In this document: one piece after another, positions 887-61,124 of the stretch | How the letters are laid out: every line of letters starts with the position of its first letter | How positions within the stretch are numbered: the first letter of the stretch is position 1 | Origin: Squalus acanthias | Lineage: Eukaryota | Direction: 5' to 3' | Assembly (NCBI GenBank): GCA_030390025.1 | Contig: CM059432.1 | Location: 24,864,001-24,928,000 of the forward strand | Length of the DNA stretch: 64,000 bases | Notes under the pieces: generated by a model | What the model was told of the DNA's origin: nothing | Seen by the model: the letters and a program-made list of their open reading frames with translations, nothing else | Databases searched by the model: none | Program-made: the position numbers and the translations under genes

Positions 887-993
887 GTAAGAGGTGCACT
901 TCTGAGATTAGGCTTGAGGCACACTGTTGGGGCAGATCAAGAGAAACGTAACTCTCTACATATACCATGTTGTACCTGACCTGGCAGTGCTTG
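887..993. repeat. Left arm of 107-bp inverted repeat (partner 1592-1698)
   Basis: Reverse complement of 887-993 matches 1592-1698 with 3 mismatches by eye; the peptide MVYVESYVSLDLPQQCASSLIS appears in ORFs on opposite strands. Confidence 0.92.
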
Positions 994-25390: not shown

Positions 25391-26534
25391 TCAGCCGTTG
25401 ACGGACGGCCCTTGCAGTTTCATCATTATGGGCCTCCCTCCCGCCTTGGTGCTGCTGATGATCATCCAACTCCTCTTCCTCCTCCTCTTCCTCCTCCTCC
25501 TCCGGTGGTGCTCCAGGCCTGGTGGCATTGGCTGGGTCCTGAGGATTGCCAGGTTATGCAGCATGCAGCACACAACTATGAAGAGGGAGACTCGCTCAGG
25601 CGAGTACTGCAGGGCTCCTTCTGAGTGGTCCAGACAGCGGAACCGTTGCTTGAGCATGCCGATCGTCTGCTCAATGATGTTCCTGGTGACGAGATGGCTC
25701 TCGTTGTACCGCAGCTCAGCAGGGGTGTTGGGGTTACGGAGCGGTGTCATCAGCCAGGTGCACAGTGGATAACCTTTGTCCCCGAGGAGCCAAGCACTTG
25801 GCTGATGCAGTGCCTGGAAAAGTTCTGGCACAGCAGCCTGGCGCAGGATGAAAGCATTGTGGCTGCTGCCAGGATAGCGGGCATTGACAGTGAGTATCAG
25901 CTGTCTGTGGTCACAGACCAACTGGACATTTAAGGAGTGGTACCCCTTGCGGTTGCGGAAATCCTCTGCATTCTCATGCGGTGCACGCAATGCCACATGC
26001 ATGCAGTCAATGGTGCCCTGCACCATGGGGAAGCCCGCTATCCTTGCAAAGCCCAATGCACGTTCATGCTGTTTGGCCCGGGTCATCGGGAAAGAGATGT
26101 ACTGGCGTCTCCTTTTATAGAGGGCATTTGTGACCTGACGGATGCAGCAATGGACCACGAACTGGGAGATATTGGCGATGTCCCCAGTAGCAGCTTGAAA
26201 GGAGCCGGTGGCATAAAAGTTCAGAGCCACTGTGACCTTCGCTGCCACCGACAGAGACGTCCTGGTCCTCAGTAGAGGCTGCAGATCTGGCTGCAGCAGG
26301 TGGCAGAGCTCAGTGACCACCTCCTTGCTGAAGCGCAGCCTGCGCAAACACTGCTCCTCAGACAAATTAATGTAGGAGAATTGTTGGCGAAATACTCAGG
26401 GAGGGTAAGATCTCCTGTACAGAGGCCTGTTGGCCCTCCTCTGTCTGGCCATGATTGCCACTCTCTCTCTGCGTCTCTGTTGCCTCCGATTCTGCAGGCA
26501 CAGGACGATGCCCCGAATCAGTGCAGCCCCCACA
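25391..26534 (-). pseudogene. Harbinger DDE transposase (HARBI1-like family); catalytic core open for 324 codons, one upstream stop and probable C-terminal frameshift
   Basis: GTIDCMHV, NRKGYHSLNVQLVCD, PGSSHNAF, LLGDKGYP, RNIIEQTIGMLKQRFRCL, CCMLHN; upstream ORF 26396-26701 is in frame across one TGA. Confidence 0.92.
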
Positions 26535-27413
26535 GTCTCTTGGTAATCGAAGTAATGAAGGTCAAATCCAAAAGTACCTGCAAAGTGATGCTCAGTAGCC
26601 AAAACGACTTCACACAGCGTTGACTCTATGCAGAAGTCTCTCTTTCTCTCTCTCAGAATCTCTCTCTCAGTCAGAATGAGTGGTGCAAAAATGTCTACCA
26701 CAGAAAAAGCCAGGAAGAGGCCGTCTTTAAATAGTGCCCCCCCAGTCTACCTGTCATTGCTTGCGCCAGGCGGAAAGGAGGGTGGCGCCACTCAATATCT
26801 GGTCCGGTGCACCACAAGGGCGTTGCACGCTCGACTGACGTCAAGATCTGCGGGCGCTGGAGATCGGGGCGGTAGTGTTTAGCGCCGCTGCAAAATGTCT
26901 GGTCAATTTCGCAAGCGGCGCAGACATCGCCGCGCCCGGGCGCTAGTTGCTTTGCACCCCATTAGTGCCCTCTTAAGGCGCTAACGGGAAGTGCAAACCA
27001 ACCAAATTTTCCCCCCAATATTCCCCCTTGTTCTTTATGTTGCTTAATTCAAATTATTAGATAATTACATTTTTTAAGTCAAAAAGAAGTCAACTGCAGT
27101 GCCTCATCAAATCCCAAAGACTATCTCATCTTTGCCCATCTATGCAAGCTTATGCGAATATAGAAGGGAGATAAATGTGATTTACTCTTAGGTGGTGAAC
27201 CTCTGGGAGAGCTTGCGGCATTTCTACAGCTTTTCTGGGGTTTTTGTGTTCTCTCGCCAAAGTTATGGTGGACGAGCGGGAGAACTACCACAGAAATCCA
27301 CCCCTTAATACCTTTAGGACAACTAGGGATGGGCAATAAATACTGGCCACAACCCAAGATCAAATTAACAAAAGACGCAGCAATGATATTCATAAGCTGC
27401 TGAGTTACATTCA

Positions 27414-27624
27414 TGATGTGGAGATGCCGGTGTTGGACTGGGGTGGACAAAAGTGAGAAGTCGTAGAACACCAGGTTATAGTCCAACAGTTTTATTTGAA
27501 ATCACAAGCTTTCGGAGCGGCTGCTCCTTCGTCAGGTGAAGTGACGAAGGAGCAGCCGCTCCGAAAGCTTGTGATTTCAAATAAAACTGTTGGACTATAA
27601 CCTGGTGTTGTGCGACTTCTCACT
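27414..27624. mobile_element. Fold-back mini Penelope-like element (inverted terminal-repeat hairpin)
   Basis: ~85-bp arms, 7-nt loop, 13-bp TSD TGAGTTACATTCA (27401-27413 / 27625-27637). Confidence 0.88.
27502..27539 (-). ncRNA. Minimal type I hammerhead ribozyme motif
   Basis: UCAC-CUGACGA-aGGAGC agcc GCUCC-GAAAGCUU-GUGA: intact core, stem II, palindromic stem III, stem I UCAC/GUGA. Confidence 0.8.
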
Positions 27625-28027
27625 TGAGTTACATTCAGGTCAAGTAGCTGGTGCAGAAGCCAGGGTAACTGGTGGGACTAATTTTGTTCCCCTCCACTTT
27701 ACCTGCCTTTCATTTTGAAGGTACTGACAAATGCAAGGGTATGGTTCCCTGGGCACCACCACCCTTTGGTACTTCACCCATTATTCTTGCTTGAGCCTAG
27801 ACAGTAAGTGTCAAACGTTACACGACAATAGGAGACCATCACAGATGAACTCAACCCTGTTCTCACTTGATTTTGGCACAGGCATTTTCAATGGGGCATC
27901 ACTAAAGAATGACCTTGTATTTATCTAGCACTTTGCACAGCCAATGAAGTACTTTTGAAGTGTAGTCATTGATGTAATGTAGGGAAACATGGCAGCCAAT
28001 TTGCACTCAGCAATGTTCCACAAACAG

Positions 28028-28360
28028 CATAAGAAATAGGAGCAGGAGTAGGCCATTCAGCCCCTCGAGCCTGCTCCACCATTCAATAAGGTCATGGTTG
28101 ATCTGATCTTGGCCTCAACTCCATTTTCCTACCTGTTCCCCATAATCCTTGACTCCCCTGTAGCTCAAATATCTGTCTATCTCAGCCTTGAATATATTCA
28201 CTGACTCAGCCTCCACAGCTCTCTGGGATAGAGAATTCCAAAGATTCATGACCATCTGAGAGAAGAAATTCCTCCTCATTGCCATCTTAAATGGGCGACC
28301 CCTTATCCTAAAACTATGCCCCCTAGTTCTAGATTCCCTACGAGGGGAACATCCTCTCTG
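28028..28360 (-). mobile_element. CR1 3' fragment inside a SINE tail
   Basis: RTRGHS..RRNFFSQ..WNSL; cataagaaataggagcagg tail. Confidence 0.85.
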
Positions 28361-28375
28361 GGATAAATGACCAGA

Positions 28376-28759
28376 TACTCTAATGAAGCTCAACGGAAGC
28401 TTGAGGAACAGCACCTCATCTTTCAATTAGGCACTTTACAGCCGTCTGGACTCAACATAGAGTTCAACAATTTCAGATCATAACTACTGTTCCCATTTTT
28501 TCTGACAGCAGGTGCTGGTAATGGTTCTGCTGTAGCCATTTACACCTCCTCTAGACCCATCTTTTGTTTCTTTACTTGTCCCTTTACCATCTCCCTTTGT
28601 CTTGCACCATCATCCCTGCCTTCCACCCTATCAGAGACCTTCCATTTTTTTCTTTCCTTCCCTACCCCCTTTCCCTGCTTCTGTACTTGCTTAAAATCTG
28701 TTACATCTCTAACTTTATCCAGTTGTGATGAGAGGTCCTAGACCTGAAACATTAACTTT
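28376..28759 (+). mobile_element. Penelope-like element 3' end (GIY-YIG tail + pLTR with degenerate HHR)
   Basis: cttgaggaacagcacctcatcttt...ggactcaacatagagttc; near-identical to 37630-38009. Confidence 0.85.
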
Positions 28760-29100
28760 GACCATGATTTTGCTGACCTCGGTGGCTCCGTGGCGGGCGA
28801 CGTCGGTGGTGGGTCCTGACCCCGCTGCTGTCTCCATTCCTTCCTCTGAAATGAATTTCCCAAAATTGGGCTTGTTAAGCCCGCCCAGCGTGTTTGCCGG
28901 CCAATTAGAGGAAGTAGGTCTGATGAAGTCATTTGATGACATGTCATCAGCCAGTTTCCTTAAAGGGACCATGCCCAAATTTAGTTTGACATTTGTGCTG
29001 TCAGTGTTCTACAGCATTGAGGTGCTGCAAGCACTGACAAGCACTGCACAGAGGTACAGGGCTACACCCAGGCTCTCCCAAGACTCCCTCCATATGTTTG
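28760..29100 (+). mobile_element. Truncated Harbinger derivative (family C) inserted in Penelope pLTR
   Basis: Left TIR gaccatgattttgc; homologous to 38010-38822 and 49280-50903. Confidence 0.8.
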
Positions 29101-29113
29101 GAAAAGATGAGGT

Positions 29114-29724
29114 ACAAAGCGGTCACCCAAATGCAGATTGGGTGACCGCTTTGTGGAACACCTCCATTCAGTCCGTAAAGGTGACCCCGAGCTTCCAGTC
29201 GCCTGTCACTTTAATTCTCCGCTCCACTCCCACTCTGATCTCTCCATCCTTGGCCTCTTACACTGCTCCATTGAAGCTCAATGTAAGCTCGAGGAACAGC
29301 ATCTCATCTTTTGATTAGGCACTTTACAGCCTTCTGGACTCAACATCGAGTTCAACAATTTCAGACCATAACCTTTGTCCATATTTTTTTTTCCACATGG
29401 CAGCTGTTGATCATTCAGCCATTGCCATTTACACTTCATCCAGACTCATCTTTTGTTTCTTAACTTGTCTCATTACCATCTCCTTTTGCCTTGCACCATC
29501 ATCCCTTTTGTCTCTTTATCTCTCCTGCCTTCCATCCTATCACAGACCTTCCCTTTTGTTCTTTCCTCTCCTCCCCCCTCTCCCTGCCCCTACACTTGCT
29601 TAAAAACCTTTTACATCTCCAACTTTTTCCAGTTCTGACGAAGGGTCATCGACCTGAAACATTAACTCTGTTTCTCTCTCTGCAGATGCTGCCTGACCTG
29701 CTGAGTATTTCCAGCATTTTCTGA
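29114..29724 (+). mobile_element. Penelope-like element 3' end, uninterrupted pLTR
   Basis: GIY-YIG C-terminal codons, then cagatgctgcctgacctgctgagtatttccagcattttctg. Confidence 0.85.
29631..29667 (+). ncRNA. Minimal hammerhead ribozyme motif (stem III mutated, CATT for presumed CGTT)
   Basis: AGUU-CUGACGA-agGGUC auc GACCu-GAAAcauu-AACU. Confidence 0.7.
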
Positions 29725-30852
29725 ATTCTCCTGGAATCCTGGCCAACTTTCTTCCCTGAACCAACAGTAGCCAAAACAGATTAATTGGTCATTCATTTGC
29801 CATTTCTAGGACCTTGCAGAATCCAAATCGGCTGCTGTATTCACCTACATAACAAAAGTGACTGCTCTTCAAAAGTATTCCATTGCTTGTAAAGTGCTTT
29901 GGGATGTTTGAGGATGTGATCAGTTGCTTGTTAAAAATTTAGGTCTGCTGTAGATACCTTCTTGGACTCAGTGGTGTCAGTCACTCCCCAAAGAAATCTG
30001 AGTATCTTACCTTTACTGGAGTTGACTCACACTGATTTAAACCTACTTACATTTCTCAACCAGGCAATGCACTTACCCAGTAAGCCACTGGGAGAGCTTT
30101 CCAATTTATTTTGCATTTAAACATCCGTGAAATTGAAGTATAGGGAATTATAAAAATAGGGCTAACGTGGGCATCATAAATTTAGGCCTTTTAAGTCATC
30201 CTTAGCCACTTGATCTGATTTAAAAGTGGAAGGAGTGATGACGATTTTATTTTATACTGTACCAAGAATTTACTAATCTGTGCCCAAGGAAGGCAAGAGA
30301 CCTGCATTGTTTTTTATCCCCTCAAGAAATTCTCACTCTTATTATATTACTAATCAAACATTGATGCACTGATCACTGACAAAAAGTGCTTCTTTCACGA
30401 ATGACTACAGACAAGAAAACCAATCAAAATTTTTCACCTCCATTATAACATCATCTGACCAGAGATATTGCTTCGGTTGCTATGGTTATGGCAGGACCTC
30501 AAATTACGATTAGTGCTACAATTAGGATTACATTTCAGTCGGTGTTCGCTAACCACTTTGCGGACTGCGTCTTGACAGTTGTCATTTGTTTGGAGATTTA
30601 CGCTTGCCAATTAATCAGGAGCAAGTTAATCTTCAGCTTCAGTGAAGCTGAGAAATAGACTAAGAGTAAAACATTGGCTGCTTTGTGTTAAATACAGCAA
30701 ACTCATTAGGAACGATTTTACAAATGTGGACTCCTGATGGAAAGCCCTTGCCCACCAGCAGCTCATATTGAGAAATTGTGGTTTTGCTCCCCATGAATTT
30801 TCATCCAATGGATGGAGAATTGCACGGAAGCGCGGCAGCAATTTGTTGACAT

Positions 30853-34910: not shown

Positions 34911-35757
34911 ATGGTCTCCCTCATCTCTATGGACGTCCAGTAACTCTACGCCTCCATCCCCCACCAGGACGGCCTGAGGGCGCTCCGCTTCTTCCTTGAA
35001 CGGAGGCCCAACCAGTCCCCATCCACCACCACACTCCTCCGCCTGGCTGAATTTTTTCTAACATTGAACAACTTCTCCTTTGATTCCACTCATTTCCTCC
35101 AAATAAAAGGTGTTGCTATGGGACCCCTTATGGGTCCCAGTTATGCCTGCCTTTTTGTGGGATATGTGGAACATTCTTTGTCCCAGTCCTACTCAGGTCC
35201 CCTCCCTCACCTCTTTTTCTGGCACATTGATGACTATCAGTGCCGTTTACTGCTCTCACCCCGAACTGGAAAGTTTCATCAACTTTTCTTCCAATTTCCA
35301 CCCTTACCGCATCTTCACATGGTCCATCTCTGATTCTTCCCTTTGCTTCCTCGATTTCTCTATCTCCATTTCTGGGGATAGGCAATCGACTAATATCTAC
35401 TATAAGCCACCTACTCCCAAGCTACCTTGACTACACGTTCTCCCACCCTGCTTCCTGTAAGGACTTTATTCCATTCTCACAGTTTCTCTGTCTCCGTCAC
35501 ATCTGTTCTGACGGTGCCACCTTTCATACCAGTGCTTCTGATTTGTCTTCCTTTTTCCTCAACCAAGGATTCCCCTCCACCATGGTTGATAGGGCCGTCG
35601 ACTGTGTCAGTAACATTTCCTGCACTTATGCTCTCACCCCTTCCCCTTCGTCCCAGAACCACAATAGGGTTCTCCTTGTCCTCACCATCCACCCCGCCAG
35701 CCTCCACATTCAACGGGTCATCCTCCGCCATTACCACCACCTCCAGCCTAATCCCAC

Positions 35758-37208
35758 TGTAAAGGAATGAGCCATACCTATTCAGAAAAATACACCATCC
35801 TATGAACAGAATTCTGACTTTTTAAAAATATGACAAACTGGGTTTAAAGATCTAAAAGCCTCAATGACACAAAGCTGTAAATACAGGCTTCTGAGGTAAG
35901 ATGAGTCACAAAGCTGTAAACACCATACAAGCTTTTGAAATGGGAATTGGTTGTAAATACTAAAACAATGGCCCTATTGAAGAAGCAAAGAGGAGGTTCC
36001 AAGAAGTCTGCAGTTTGGAACCAACACAATAAGAATACCCAGTTTAAAGTGTTAAAAACTAACACTTCGAACAGAAACACAGAACATTAAAAAACCATGT
36101 GCCTTTGTAAAAGTAACATCAAATGAAAGACAGGAAACATAAGTTTGTAATATAACCAACTAAGATGGCTGGGGAAACAATCAAGTACTTAGTTGAAGTG
36201 TTTTTGATTTACATATTGTAAAAGGTACAAACAGAAGACTTTGTAAATATTACATCAATAGATGCATCAAGCAATCACATTGGTTATGTGTTGAACTTGG
36301 AACACACGGAGACAGAAGTCTGCTTTCAACCAGTTAAAGTGATTTAAGAATTCAATAGAGGACCTTCGTAAGAATGGTATCAAATAAAAAACTACTGTCA
36401 AATTGTTTTTTATGATAAGATTTGAACACCTAAAGGTAGAGACAGAAGTCTGCAAGTTAACAGCTGAATTGACAGTACGAATAGAAAGAAGTCAACAGAA
36501 AATATGACTGGAGATAATTAGCTTACATCAGCAGAAAACTTCAACGAATATACCACTGAGAAAGAATATAAAATATAGAACTTTCAGATAGGAAGTCAGA
36601 AGTCGCTGGAAGGGGCAAGCGATTCTCAACTTCAGAGGCAGGCTCTGTAAGTTTTTAACTCTTTGAGTCTCAGGGATCAAAAGGTACTTTTATTTGATTT
36701 TGGTGGATATTCTGGATTAAGAATAAGTACGAAGTGTGGAAAGGTAACGAAGTTAAGATTTGAGAATAAGGATCTCTGATAAGAAATGTAAGCTATTTGT
36801 AATTTGAACTGTTAAAGTTGCGATTGAATCACCAACTGTTAGCTGCATGTCGGTTCTTTAATAAATCTATATATTTTTAGAATTGTCTCACGGAGTATTT
36901 CTGTATCAAACTCGCAAACTCAATTTCTGTACACTCTTTTGTGAGGAGTTGCAGAATTCTGGGGGGGTTTCCGGACCCTCATAATATCCGGAAGGTTACA
37001 GTCTAGTTAAACTTATTAAAAGTGCTATCTGGAGGACGGTAACATCTTCAAGTCATTCCTTTCCTTTAGGGAGAGGTAGTCTGACCTTTAGACCCAATTA
37101 AGCGTCTCTAGATTCGGCTATCTCTAACTTTAGTTGAAGGTGAACGTCTGGGAATACGCCTGATCTGGGGTCACCCGAAAAGGGCTAGGACTAGTAATTA
37201 TCCCTTCA
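35758..37208 (+). mobile_element. Solo LTR (1451 bp)
   Basis: TG...CA, TSD CCAC (35754-35757 / 37209-37212), TATAAAA 36567-36573, AATAAA 36860-36865. Confidence 0.88.
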
Positions 37209-37970
37209 CCACCACCAAACACATCTTACCCTCCCCTTTCAGCATTCCAAAGGGACCCTTTGCGGCAACCTGGCCCACTCTTCAATCACACCCAACACCC
37301 CTACCCCTTCCCACAGCACCTTCCCATGCAAGTGCAGGAGATGCAACACTGGCCCTTTTACCTCCTCTCTTCCCACCATCCAGGGCCAGAAACTTTCCTT
37401 CCAGGTGAAACAGCGTTTTACTTGTATTTCTTTCAATTTAGTAAACGGTATTCGCTGCTCACGATGTGATCTCCTCTACACTGGGGAGACCAAATGCAGA
37501 TTGAGTGATCACTTTGCGGAATACCTCCTTTCAGTCCGCAAGCAAAACCCTGAGCTTCCGGTTGCCTGTCATTTTAATACTCCGCCCACTCCCACTCTGA
37601 CCTCTCTGTTCTTGGCCTCCTACACTGTTCTAATGAAGCTTAATGGAAGCTTGAGGAACAGCACCTCATCTTACTATTAAGCACTTTACAGCCTTCCGGA
37701 CTCAACATTGAGTTCAACAATTTCAGATCATAACCACCGCTCCCAATTTTTCGGACAGCAGCTATAGGTAATGATTCTGCTATTGCCATTAACACCTCCT
37801 CTAGATCCATCTATTGTTTTTTTACTTGTCCCTTTACCATCTTCCTTTGTCTTGCACCATCATCCCTGCCTTCCACCCTATCACAGACCTTCCATTTTTT
37901 TCTTTCCTTCCCTACCCCCTTTCCCTGCCTCTGTACTTGCTTAAAACCAGTTACATCTCTAACTTTTTCC

Positions 37971-38007
37971 AGTTCTGATGAAAGGTCCTCAACCTGAAAC
38001 ATTAACT
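37971..38007 (+). ncRNA. Degenerate hammerhead ribozyme motif in Penelope pLTR
   Basis: agttCTGATGAaaggtcctcaacctGAAAcattaact. Confidence 0.55.
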
Positions 38008-38009
38008 TT

Positions 38010-38822
38010 GGCCGTGATTTTGCTGACCTCGGTGGCTCCGTGGCGGATCCTGACCCCGCTGCTGTCTCCATCCTCTGAAATGAATTTCCCAAGATTGGGC
38101 TTGTTAAGCCCTCCCAGCGCGTTTGCCGGCCAATTAGAGGAAGTGAGTCTGATGACATCATTTGATGACGCGTCATCAGCCGGTTTAGTTTGACATTTGT
38201 GCTGTCAGTGTTCTACAGCATTGAGGTGCTGCAAATACTGACAAGCACTGCACAGAGGTGCAGGGCTGCACCATGGCTCTCCCATGACTCCCTCCATATG
38301 TTTATGGAGGGAGTCACAGTACACAGGGAGATTCTCTTCCCTTCCCATGGGCGGAAGTGACCTCCATCGATCAACACAGCCTGGTTGCACATTGCAGAGG
38401 AGGGCACAAGTAGGGATGTGGTCAGGAGGGCAAACCTTTCAATGATCTCAGTAGATCATGAAACGTTAGTACAAAGCCACACTCAACCTCATCGCTGTGC
38501 CTCTGAACACATCTCCCTCACTCTGCCTTCCCTACCCTACTCCTGCACATCATTACTCGCACCAATCTTTCAAATCTAAAAAGCTGGGAAAAAAACATTG
38601 ATAAGTGGCTGTAAACAAGCCACTAATGATTTTAATTGTCCCCCCCCCCCCCCCCCCCTGTCGCTGCATGTTGGGTCTGCTCAGCGCTGACAGACCCGAC
38701 ATTTGGTAAAGGCACATGGCGACGGGTTCACAACGGGGTCCCGACCCACTGGGGTAAAAGAAAACTTTCCCACTCGACCCGCCACCTGATCGTGCCCACT
38801 GACCCCCCGCAAAATCCAGCCC
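38010..38822 (+). mobile_element. Harbinger derivative (family C) with Myb exon-1 remnant
   Basis: TIRs ggccgtgattttgc / gggctggattttgc, TTT TSD (38007-38009 / 38823-38825). Confidence 0.87.
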
Positions 38823-38884
38823 TTTGTTTCTCTCTCCACAGATGCTGCCTGACCTGCATGAGTATTTCCAGCATTTTATTTTTA

Positions 38885-39250
38885 TTCCCTCATCTCTACT
38901 TGTCTTTGTAATCACTACTACTGTGGTCATTGCTCCTGTGAACGTTCCTCTCCTGTTAATCCGAAACTTCAAGTATTCCGTCCTACATGCTTTCCCTCCT
39001 TCCAGCATCATGTGTTGAAGTCAAAACACGTGGCATTGTCTCCTGCTCTAACCCATTCTTTCCTAAAAGCTCAAAACTGTGGTACTCCTTACCTCCCCTT
39101 TCTCTCAATGTCTACAGGTTTTTAAGCTCAAGCTTAATGTTATCTAACCACAACTTCTTGAACTATCTACTTCTCTCCTGTTCTTTTCTACCTTGCTTGT
39201 GCCCTGCGTCAGGCATGCACCTAGATTTTTTAATAATTAAAAAAAACAAC
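38885..39250 (+). mobile_element. 3' end of a further decayed non-LTR (CR1/Jockey-like) element
   Basis: NPFFPKSSKLWYSLP resembles the SFFPRT..LWNSLP terminal motif; A-rich tail. Confidence 0.5.
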
Positions 39251-53116: not shown

Positions 53117-53229
53117 ATTTCTGCCTCTACCATCCTTTCAGGCAGTGAGTTCCAGACCCCCACCACCTATGGGTGAAATAATTTCTCCTCAAATCCCCTC
53201 TAAACCTCCGACCAATTACTTTAAATCTA

Positions 53230-53432
53230 TGATGCGGAGATGCCGGCGTTGGACTGGGGTGGACAAAAGTGAGAAGTCGCACAACACCAGGTTATAGTCC
53301 AACAGTTTTATTTGAAATCACAAGCTTTCGGAGCTGCTGCCCCTTCACCTGACGAAGGAGCAGCAGCTCCGAAAGCTTGTGATTTCAAATAAAACTGTTG
53401 GACTATAACCTGGTGTTGTGCGACTTCTCACT
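53230..53432. mobile_element. Fold-back mini Penelope-like element, second copy
   Basis: ~80-bp arms, loop acctgac, TSD TTTAAATCTA (53220-53229 / 53433-53442). Confidence 0.88.
53345..53382 (+). ncRNA. Minimal type I hammerhead ribozyme motif
   Basis: UCAC-CUGACGA-aGGAGC agca GCUCC-GAAAGCUU-GUGA. Confidence 0.8.
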
Positions 53433-53885
53433 TTTAAATCTATGCCCCCTGGTTATCGACCCCTCTGCTAAGGGAAATAGGTCCTTCCTATCCAATCTAT
53501 CTAGGCCCCTCATAATTTTATACACCCCAATTAGGTCTCCCCTCAGCCTCCTCTGTTCCAAAGAAAACAACCCCAGCCTATACAATCTTTCCTCATAGCT
53601 AAAATTCACTTGCCCAGGCAACATCTTCGTAAATCTCCTCTGCACCCTCTCGAGTGCAATCACATCCTTCCTGTAATGTGGTGACCAGAACTGCACACAG
53701 TATTCTAGCTGCGGCCTAACTAGTGTTTTATACAGTTTCAGCAGAACCTCCCTGCTCTTATATTCTATTGTCGGCTAATAAAGGCAAGTATCCTGTGTGC
53801 CTTCTTAACCACCTTATCTACCTGGTTTTCCAGCTATTCATTTTAATGGATGAAAAACAACAGGAACCATACCCGTGATCTCCTG

Positions 53886-55604: not shown

Positions 55605-55765
55605 ATATAAAAATGGAAAATGCTGGAAATACTCAGCAGGACAGGCAGCATCTGTGGAGAGAGAAACTGAACTAATGTTTCAGGTCTATGACCTATCGTC
55701 AGAACTGAAAAAAGTTTGAGATATAACAGGTTTTAAGCAAGTGCAGAGGCAGGGAAAGGACAGGA
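55605..55765 (-). mobile_element. Penelope pLTR fragment with HHR motif (55670-55706)
   Basis: Minus strand agttCTGACGAtaggtcatagacctGAAAcatt; homologous to 29590-29724. Confidence 0.75.
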
Positions 55766-59950: not shown

Positions 59951-61124
59951 GGGGGTAGAAATACAATCACACCTATTTTTGGGCGTGGGCCATGAAGCTG
60001 GTGAGCTGCAGAGAGTAAGTTGCATCTTGCCCAGCGAACTGTCACTGAAGAACAGGCCGCTGCAGTGGCTCTATGGTAAGTGAGTAAGGGGGAGGCCCGG
60101 GGGGCAATCGGTGGCCGGTGGGGGAACAGTTCGTGCCTCAGGCTGAGGGGGTTGGGAAAGAAATTGGGCCTTAGGTGGAGGATAGATTGGGTCTCAGGCA
60201 GGGGGAGGTATGGTAGAGATCGGACCTCAAGCCATGGTGGGGAGGTGAGAGATTAAGCCTCAGGCTGTGGGAGAGGGGTGTAGAAGTTGGGCCTCAGGCC
60301 AAAGGGGTGGGGGGGGGTGCAGAAATTGGGCCTCAGGCCAGGGGGATAGAAGCGATTGTGCCTCAGGCTGGGAGGAGGGAGGAGAGATTGGGCCTCAGGC
60401 TGAGGTGGGGGGAGGAGAGATTGGGCCTCAGGCTGAGGTGGGGGGGGGAGAGATTGGGCCTCAGGCCGGTGGGGTGGGGGGGTGGTTGGGGTAAGGGGGA
60501 GATTGGGCCTCAGGCCAAGGGGGGAGGAGAGATTGGGCCTCAGGCCAAGGGAGGGGGAGAGATTAGGCCTCAGGCCAAGGTGGGTGGGGGGTAAGGAGGA
60601 GATTAGGCCTCAGGCCAAGGAGGGAGGAGAGATTGGGCCTTAGGCTGGGGAGGGGGGAGAGATTGAGCCTCAGGCTGGGGTGGGTGGGGGGTAAGGGGGA
60701 GATTGGGCCTCAGGCCAAGGAGGGAGGAGAGATTGGGCCTCTGGCTGGGGAGCAGGGAGGGATTGAGCCTCAGGCCAAGGGGGAGGGGGGTGGGGAGAGA
60801 TTTGGCCTCAGGCCGGTGAGGGGGGGGAGTGATTGGGCCTCAGGCTGGGGGTGGGAAGTGGGGAAAGATTGAGCCTCAGGCCGAAGGGGGGAGAGATTGG
60901 GCCTCCAACTGGGCGGGGGGAGGGCCTCAGGCTGGAGGGAAGCACAGCACATTAATTTAGATAAATTGATCTTCACTTTCAATGTTGCCGGCATGCGCTC
61001 CTGCCACCAGTGCAACCTCCTTTCCCAATATGTTGGGCGCGCACTTCCGGCCGCAAATGTGTGAGCGCTTCCTTTCTGCCATATTGGGGGCTGAATAGGC
61101 AGCATAGTGCCAAATTTATAGGCC
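59951..61124. mobile_element. Probable Harbinger-type MITE enclosing a G-rich minisatellite
   Basis: Ends ggggtagaaat / ggcctataaatt resemble other TIRs in the window. Confidence 0.55.
60130..60935 (+). repeat. Minisatellite of GAGATTGGGCCTCAGGC cores separated by G-tracts (~25 units, 30-50 bp)
   Basis: Seen directly. Confidence 0.95.

What the first reader, a model, noticed from the sequence alone, without database searches (positions are those of the whole stretch)
27401..27637. Ribozyme-bearing fold-back mini-retroelement (copy 1 of 2)
Seen: a 211-bp non-coding insert with a 13-bp TSD, made of ~36 nt single-copy sequence plus an ~85-bp near-perfect hairpin; one arm holds a complete minimal hammerhead core with AAGCUU palindromic stem III. 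Established: Penelope-like elements carry minimal type I HHRs in their pLTRs, thought to work as dimers, and can form inverted-pLTR ends. Inference: this is a recurrent non-autonomous product whose transcript could either self-cleave or be locked as long dsRNA (ribozyme switch, or endo-siRNA source against the parent element).
Basis: partly seen in the sequence, partly recalled or inferred. Interest (0 to 1): 0.72.

Follow-up and report, generated by a model that had tools for sequence, protein, structure and literature searches.

The report
Penelope retroelement fold-back insertion scar
This 211-base hairpin-shaped insert with a small ribozyme motif is real and belongs to an abundant repeat family, and it is most likely an ordinary truncated insertion of a Penelope-like jumping gene rather than a new mini-element or ribozyme switch.

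Summary
Observation confirmed: 211-bp insert (27414-27624), exact 13-bp target duplication, 37-nt single-copy end, 84-bp hairpin (82 pairs match), complete minimal type I hammerhead on the minus strand. A second copy (53232-53432, 12-bp duplication) interrupts a LINE whose two paralogues in the window show the empty site. The layout matches the published insertion pattern of endonuclease-bearing Penelope-like elements (PLEs): a 5'-truncated terminal repeat, an inverted truncated copy and a 30-40 nt tail. The two copies have different fold-back junctions of opposite polarity, so they are likely independent products of a parent element, not one self-spreading unit. Thousands of contigs in 4 of 4 public runs laid carry the family, with a sharp tail boundary. 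The hairpin is predicted to beat the hammerhead fold by 55 kcal/mol, so a switch is unlikely; small-RNA output is untested. No parent ORF could be fetched, so membership rests on RNA motif and architecture. Rfam found no hammerhead. The scan noted this same pattern on other genomes (three earlier AI notes). Residual interest: junctions fall at the ribozyme and could record how PLE reverse transcription stops.

The parts
27401..27413 (.). Target-site duplication, left copy (13 nt; its last 1-3 bases may also be element-encoded)
   Evidence: Exact repeat; family contigs end at 27411-27413, table 7
27414..27450 (-). 37-nt tail, 3' end of the element in the ribozyme's sense; carries the 3' strand of a predicted 9-bp stem with the arm
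   Evidence: sharp family boundary with unrelated flanks in 4 of 4 runs
27451..27544 (-). 5'-truncated terminal repeat (pLTR end), tail-bearing arm; includes the complete hammerhead and an AATAAA; two private substitutions at 27464 and 27466
   Evidence: family has C at both places in about 97-100% of depth in 4 runs, table 3
27502..27539 (-). Minimal type I hammerhead motif; predicted cut between 27506 and 27505
   Evidence: Paired descriptor; coordinates; features as in PMC4209133
27532..27544 (.). Fold-back junction: 3-nt inverted microhomology TCA/TGA around a 7-nt loop
   Evidence: upstream family sequence from loose ends, table 7 (X7 27504, X6 27543)
27542..27624 (+). Inverted, tail-less, 5'-truncated copy of the terminal repeat; hammerhead incomplete (G at C3, no stem I 5' strand)
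27625..27637 (.). Target-site duplication, right copy
53220..53444 (-). Second copy: 12-nt TSD (53220-53231, 53433-53444), 201-bp insert, arms 53265-53346 and 53354-53435 with 1 mismatch, junction CTTC/GAAG around a 7-nt loop; complete hammerhead on the plus strand (C3 at 53349), i.e. in the tail-less arm
   Evidence: empty site in 2 of 2 LINE paralogues aligned

Best explanation
The insert is a hairpin made of two opposed copies of a hammerhead-bearing repeat end, with a 37-nt tail on one side and a 13-bp target duplication, and it is likely a dead-on-arrival, heavily 5'-truncated insertion of a Penelope-like retrotransposon. Inferred mechanism: the parent's GIY-YIG endonuclease nicks both target strands 13 nt apart; reverse transcription starts from both nicks, once at the end of the tail and once 37 nt further in; synthesis stops after 80-130 nt at the 5' edge of the ribozyme; the ends are closed through a 3-4 nt inverted microhomology already present in the parent (annealing of two cDNAs, or snap-back of one), and repair leaves the hairpin and the duplication. 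Each such hairpin likely arises anew from the parent. The hammerhead is inherited from the parent's terminal repeat and is predicted to be locked in duplex whenever this copy is transcribed. Shown: anatomy, TSDs, empty site for copy 2, differing junctions, family abundance. Inferred: parentage, both-strand priming, the joining step, ribozyme silencing.
For: Architecture equals the published PLE pattern: inverted 5'-truncated copy plus 30-40 bp tail at one end (PMC8557442, passages); inverted pLTR, 31-bp tail and 8-10 bp TSDs (PMC3846280, parts 1-3 of 5). [quoted passage not shown] Here the matching distances are 119 nt to the tail end, 82 nt to the tail-less end and 27 nt to the cut, and a 9-bp stem links arm and tail in both copies; both arms of both copies run through the cut site, as expected for uncleaved template. 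The motif has the listed minimal-hammerhead traits: 4-bp stem I, bulged base before stem II, G10.1-C11.1, palindromic 15.2-16.2. A second family in this window joins the same kind of motif (37975) to a frame whose nearest Atlas clusters carry GIY-YIG (score 0.96, 40% of members; fragments mapped). Copy 2 interrupts a LINE; 2 of 2 paralogues lack 213 nt = insert plus one TSD. Junctions of copies 1 and 2 differ and have opposite polarity. Public contigs: 6119, 2830, 1427 and 1214 contigs laid in 4 of 4 runs (4 of 21 listed), tail boundary at 27411-27413 with unrelated flanks, further strand-change joints at 27450/27542 and 27448/27530 (1 contig each), and one 410-nt contig of organism B that matches the left flank to 27413 and then leaves the element. 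The loop-II variant at 27519/27557 is the same in both arms within each copy but differs between copies, pointing to one template source per insertion.
Against: No ORF was linked to this terminal repeat: no genome held and 0 hits in 4 of 4 collection scans. Rfam reports no hammerhead here. Unlike the lizard element, the frame starting at stem II begins with ACG and closes at codon 19 (read from the sequence), so the Poseidon sub-group is not established. The lizard paper saw no strand difference in RT start site and does not explain inverted products. Pfam did not name the three frames of the second family. Only two full copies were compared; contigs are too short to count junction types (no listed piece spans the stretch). 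The organism B contig's onward letters were not shown, so the empty site of copy 1 is not letter-confirmed.
Confidence: 0.85

Rival explanations
1. The hairpin unit is a non-autonomous element in its own right: it is transcribed, bound through its tail by the parent's protein and re-inserted, with a few junction subfamilies.
For: Very high abundance in 4 of 4 runs; it keeps the 3' tail; pLTRs alone can mobilise sequence in trans (PMC3846280); copies 1 and 2 are 91% alike over 221 columns.
Against: 2 of 2 window copies differ in junction and polarity and other joints occur; the arm half of the arm-tail stem is predicted to be sequestered in the 84-bp hairpin; no promoter region of its own is retained upstream of the ribozyme (sequence).
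Confidence: 0.1
2. The hairpins act as a host-useful silencing source or ribozyme switch: read-through transcripts form long double-stranded RNA, are diced, and silence the parent element.
For: An 84-bp near-perfect duplex would form on either strand; contigs of two runs guessed to be RNA carry family ends inside 379-1424 nt records (table 8); rotifer Penelope copies yield antisense small RNAs (PMC3846280).
Against: No small-RNA data; RNA status of the runs is a guess and DNA may be present; a 55 kcal/mol gap and early hairpin formation leave no room for switching; the two private substitutions lie in one arm without compensation, as expected for neutral decay. This could be a side effect alongside the best explanation, not an origin.
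Confidence: 0.15
3. It is a MITE of a DNA transposon that happens to contain a hammerhead-like string.
For: Short, non-coding, nearly all inverted repeat, high copy; a DDE_Tnp_4 transposase remnant lies 1 kb away.
Against: Ends are asymmetric by a 37-nt tail; TSD length differs between copies (13 and 12); the centre differs between copies; the full paired hammerhead had 0 chance hits in 20 random 64-kb sequences.
Confidence: 0.03

Closest known systems
Complex insertions of canonical EN+ Penelope-like elements: inverted 5'-truncated pLTR plus tail (Craig et al. 2021, PMC8557442; Arkhipova et al. 2013, PMC3846280)
   Same: Inverted truncated copy at the 5' end, 30-40 nt tail at one end only, target duplication, microhomology-type junctions.
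   Different: Here both copies are so short that no ORF lies between them and the unit is a pure hairpin; TSD 12-13 nt against the 8-10 nt cases read in the rotifer paper.
Poseidon element of Anolis carolinensis, PAc (Frangieh et al. 2024, PMC11167929)
   Same: Hammerhead about 110-120 nt from an RT start, cut 26-27 nt after the stem II start, AC-rich stem-loop at the 3' end, tail, uncleaved RNA as template.
   Different: PAc's ORF starts inside the ribozyme; here that frame is closed. No protein of this family was seen. The paper does not describe hairpin products in the parts read.
Minimal type I hammerheads of metazoan PLEs (Cervera and De la Pena 2014, PMC4209133)
   Same: 4-bp helix I, bulged base 5' of helix II, G10.1-C11.1, palindromic minimal helix III; that paper notes most motifs are dispersed singles from truncated PLEs and some lie 100-700 bp apart on opposite strands.
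   Different: Helix II is 5 bp; the opposite-strand partner is adjacent and incomplete; activity untested here (monomers inactive, dimers weak in that paper).
Non-LTR retrozymes (Li, Clavereau, Pollet 2026 preprint 10.64898/2026.07.22.740005)
   Same: Non-coding, PLE pLTR-derived, type I hammerhead; present in the one cartilaginous fish sampled.
   Different: Retrozymes are head-to-tail tandems with a ribozyme in each unit; this is a single inverted pair with one complete ribozyme.
LINE-1 twin-priming inversions (recalled, no call)
   Same: Two primed cDNAs joined by microhomology give a 5' inversion inside a TSD.
   Different: In LINE-1 the two segments do not overlap; here the same 83 nt are present twice, and there is no poly(A) tail.

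Membership tests
EN+ Penelope-like elements | ORF with telomerase-like RT and GIY-YIG endonuclease contiguous with this terminal repeat | not testable with these tools
   No genome held; 0 hits in metagenome, genome and viral contig scans; contigs laid too short
EN+ Penelope-like elements | Minimal type I hammerhead in the terminal repeat | tested here: met
   Paired descriptor hit at 27535 (-) and 53349 (+), 0 in 20 random sequences; Rfam models did not hit
EN+ Penelope-like elements | Inverted 5'-truncated copy at the 5' end | tested here: met
   2 of 2 copies against PMC8557442
EN+ Penelope-like elements | 30-40 nt tail at one end only | tested here: met
   37 nt in both copies; sharp boundary in 4 of 4 runs
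EN+ Penelope-like elements | Variable-length target-site duplication with empty-site proof | tested here: met
   13 and 12 nt; empty site in 2 of 2 LINE paralogues for copy 2; suggestive only for copy 1
Penelope/Poseidon clade (PAc-like) | AT-rich target with ATT motif | tested here: inconclusive
   TSDs are 9 of 13 and 10 of 12 A+T and each holds ATT on one strand (sequence); n = 2
Penelope/Poseidon clade (PAc-like) | ORF start codon at hammerhead stem II | tested here: not met
   ACG at that place in both copies and a stop at codon 19 (read output); clade is properly defined by RT phylogeny, which was not testable
Hammerhead ribozyme (active) | Self-cleavage at the predicted site | not testable with these tools
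   Folding only: ribozyme fold is 0.8 kcal/mol above the minimum in the single arm and 55 above it in the full insert; the two-strand minimum-energy fold was not the active dimer
Non-LTR retrozymes | Head-to-tail tandem units each with a hammerhead | tested here: not met
   Single inverted pair, one complete motif per copy against the definition
Self-propagating non-autonomous element | Copies share the same internal junction | tested here: not met
   2 of 2 copies differ; small sample
MITE | Symmetric terminal inverted repeats and fixed-length TSD | tested here: not met
   One-sided 37-nt tail; TSD 13 versus 12
Known miRNA precursor family | Rfam gathering score | tested here: not met
   Best 99.9 bits against 249; 0 at gathering

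The most novel reading that the evidence does not exclude
The ribozyme itself sets where reverse transcription ends in this family: cDNAs stop at its 5' edge on uncut RNA or at its cut site on cut RNA, and short inverted repeats built into it close the ends. The genome would then hold thousands of hairpins that form a fossil record of in vivo hammerhead cleavage and of two-strand priming by a dimeric Penelope protein, and the element would seed its own double-stranded-RNA silencing triggers as a by-product.
Probability: 0.2. Interest if true: 0.5.

Novelty: new member of a known kind. Interest (0 to 1): 0.2.

Why it matters
As it stands it is a repeat-annotation point: such hairpins look like MITEs or miRNA precursors (8 of 11 sub-threshold Rfam hits were miRNA families) but are likely Penelope insertion scars. 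The steps of Penelope integration after priming, and the in vivo role of its hammerhead, are stated as open in PMC11167929 and PMC8557442. A high-copy family of short, young, TSD-bounded hairpins makes them testable by counting: junction positions against the ribozyme cut site, and agreement of variants between the two arms.

Tried and rejected
Own genome: none held, so no genome-wide table of ends. Parent element: exact-pattern scans found 0 in metagenome contigs, genome contigs and viral contigs. Rfam: nothing at gathering score; only sub-threshold miRNA and sRNA matches. Pfam did not name three frames of the second PLE-like family; the Atlas feature search did for the one frame of three that I sent. 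My first two attempts to pair copy 2's arms were out of register by a base or two and were replaced. Summed contig depth is not used as a copy number. The A>G difference at 27459 is higher in the guessed-RNA runs (about 17%) than in DNA run X1 (about 8%) but is present in DNA, so it is not taken as editing. Run X1 shows no cover of the left flank (55% of the run read); not interpreted. Lunse et al. on dimer cleavage was not held; seen only as a review passage (PMC6765202). Supplement 2 of PMC11167929 is a picture with no text and its GenBank file is unreadable, so the order of the two RT start sites in the lizard element and its sequence were not seen; this bears on the distance comparison. 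Literature searches for a description of such short hairpins in sharks gave only listings that I did not open, and 'Penelope' with 'twin priming' gave 3 unrelated listings; most subscription papers and repeat databases are not searched, so absence from print is not claimed.

Full report
Observation. An exact 13-nt direct repeat lies at 27401-27413 and 27625-27637, enclosing 211 bp. Of 3000 random position pairs at this spacing, 3 had a repeat of 12 nt or more; one is this copy and two are in a tandem array at 60 kb. The arms pair 27451-27534 with 27542-27625, 82 of 84 pairs, around a 7-nt loop; the fold is -172.7 kcal/mol, with 0 of 200 shuffles as stable. The single-copy part is 37 nt. On the minus strand, where that part is the 3' end, there is a complete minimal type I hammerhead with a predicted cut between 27506 and 27505. 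The descriptor hit 5 places in the window and none in 20 random 64-kb sequences. Rfam does not report it; that its models need a longer helix III is my inference.

Second copy. 53232-53432 has a 12-nt duplication, 82-pair arms with 1 mismatch and a 7-nt loop. It sits inside a LINE remnant; both paralogues aligned lack exactly 213 nt, the insert plus one duplication, so the duplication was made by insertion. The two copies share ends but not centres: in copy 1 the tail-bearing arm holds the whole ribozyme and the junction uses TCA/TGA; in copy 2 the tail-less arm holds it and the junction uses CTTC/GAAG. One cannot be a copy of the other. The loop-II base at 27519/27557 is the same in both arms within each copy and differs between copies, while three other differences affect one arm only; two of these, 27464 and 27466, are private to copy 1, since the family has C at both (table 3).

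Family. 20 of 21 listed runs hold part of the unit, 17 hold half or more of the sampled words, in organisms coded A to D (one may be the source sample). I laid 4 of the 21 on left flank, tail and one arm. 6119, 2830, 1427 and 1214 contigs lay on it. Loose ends pile up at 27411-27413 with unrelated flanks (agreement 0.38-0.54), so the tail end is the family's boundary. Depth falls from about 27511 towards 27544, in keeping with truncation around the ribozyme, though the end of the stretch also lowers it. Other strand-change joints occur (27450/27542 and 27448/27530, one contig each): tail joined straight to an inverted arm, the non-overlapping form expected if both primers use one RNA. Two further events sit at the predicted cut (a joint from 27505 in X1; a loose end at 27504 in 2 contigs of X7); with 218 loose-end rows not shown these are hints only. 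Loose ends in X7 and X6 show that the family continues upstream through the bases used in copy 1's junction, so that microhomology is parent-encoded. One 410-nt contig of organism B matches the flank to 27413 and then leaves the element, as an empty site would; its letters were not shown. The host looks like a cartilaginous fish by its repeats (recalled likeness, no call).

What it is. Craig et al. (passages) describe canonical PLE insertions as 5'-truncated, often with an inverted truncated copy at the 5' end and a 30-40 bp tail at one end. Arkhipova et al. (parts 1-3 of 5) show inverted pLTRs with a 31-bp tail and 8-10 bp duplications. Cervera and De la Pena (parts 1-2 of 4) define the minimal hammerhead seen here, find most as dispersed singles from truncated PLEs, some as close pairs on opposite strands, and report no monomer and weak dimer activity. 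Frangieh et al. (parts 1-2 of 4) show that a lizard Poseidon protein cuts and extends both target strands, starts at two sites that delimit the tail, near an AC-rich stem-loop 111-118 nt from the codon at stem II, and copies uncleaved RNA. The distances here are 27 nt to the cut (26 there), 119 nt to the tail end and 82 to the tail-less end, and a 9-bp stem joins arm and tail in both copies. In the window, a second family ties the same kind of motif to a GIY-YIG-like frame, which shows that such motifs here go with PLEs, but it is a different family. I could not fetch a parent ORF, and the frame from stem II is closed, so PLE membership rests on RNA motif and architecture and the clade is open.

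How it likely arose. Staggered nicks 13 nt apart; priming from both, at the tail end and 37 nt inside; arrest at the ribozyme's 5' edge; closure through a 3-4 nt inverted repeat of the parent; repair. Annealing of two cDNAs and snap-back of one give the same sequence at these two junctions; both 7-nt loops fit either. The agreement of the loop-II variant favours one template source per event (n = 2). These steps are inferred.

Function of the copy. In the single arm the ribozyme fold is within 0.8 kcal/mol of the minimum; in the whole insert it is 55 kcal/mol above the hairpin, which already forms in 130- and 145-nt partial transcripts. The ribozyme also needs a partner. A switch is therefore unlikely. 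The duplex could feed RNA silencing if transcribed; two runs guessed to be RNA hold family ends in longer contigs, but nothing here shows small RNAs.

Prior notes. My reading was entered before the look-ups. Sequence and place look-ups found nothing; a word look-up returned three AI notes on other genomes with the same reading. They are not independent support.

Verdict. Real, young-looking and clean, but a new member of a known kind. Interest 0.2; the junction statistics are the part worth a genome-wide count.

Noticed in passing
window 28336-28770, 29127-29740, 37150-38020, 55616-55759 (-), 38822-38885, 34944-35770: A second, more decayed Penelope-like family with the same type of minimal hammerhead (C3 at 29635 +, 37975 +, 55702 -) and a GIY-YIG-like frame at 37198-37680. 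Copies at 28.7 kb and 38.0 kb stop just after the predicted cut site and are followed by the same other repeat, suggesting a duplicated composite.
   Followed up: partly
window 25391-26395 (-): 334-aa frame with Pfam DDE_Tnp_4 (E 4e-36), a PIF/Harbinger-type transposase remnant (family name recalled); related repeated segments at about 19.5-20.2, 24.1-25.0 and 56.7-57.5 kb.
   Followed up: no
window 60114-60925: G-rich tandem array of about 20 units of 28-49 nt around a conserved core; strongly strand-skewed.
   Followed up: no
window 887-993 and 1592-1698: 107-nt inverted repeat, 97% complementary, 598 nt apart; possible MITE or another inverted-end element; not examined.
   Followed up: no
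window 27519: A 1-nt deletion in hammerhead loop II is common in all 4 runs laid (16-47% of depth, table 4), so loop II is the variable part of the family while the core is not listed as variable.
   Followed up: partly
window 27448-27450 joined to 27530-27542 in public contigs (table 5): A non-hairpin form, tail joined directly to an inverted arm, seen in one contig in each of two runs; it is the product expected if both primers copy one RNA.
   Followed up: no
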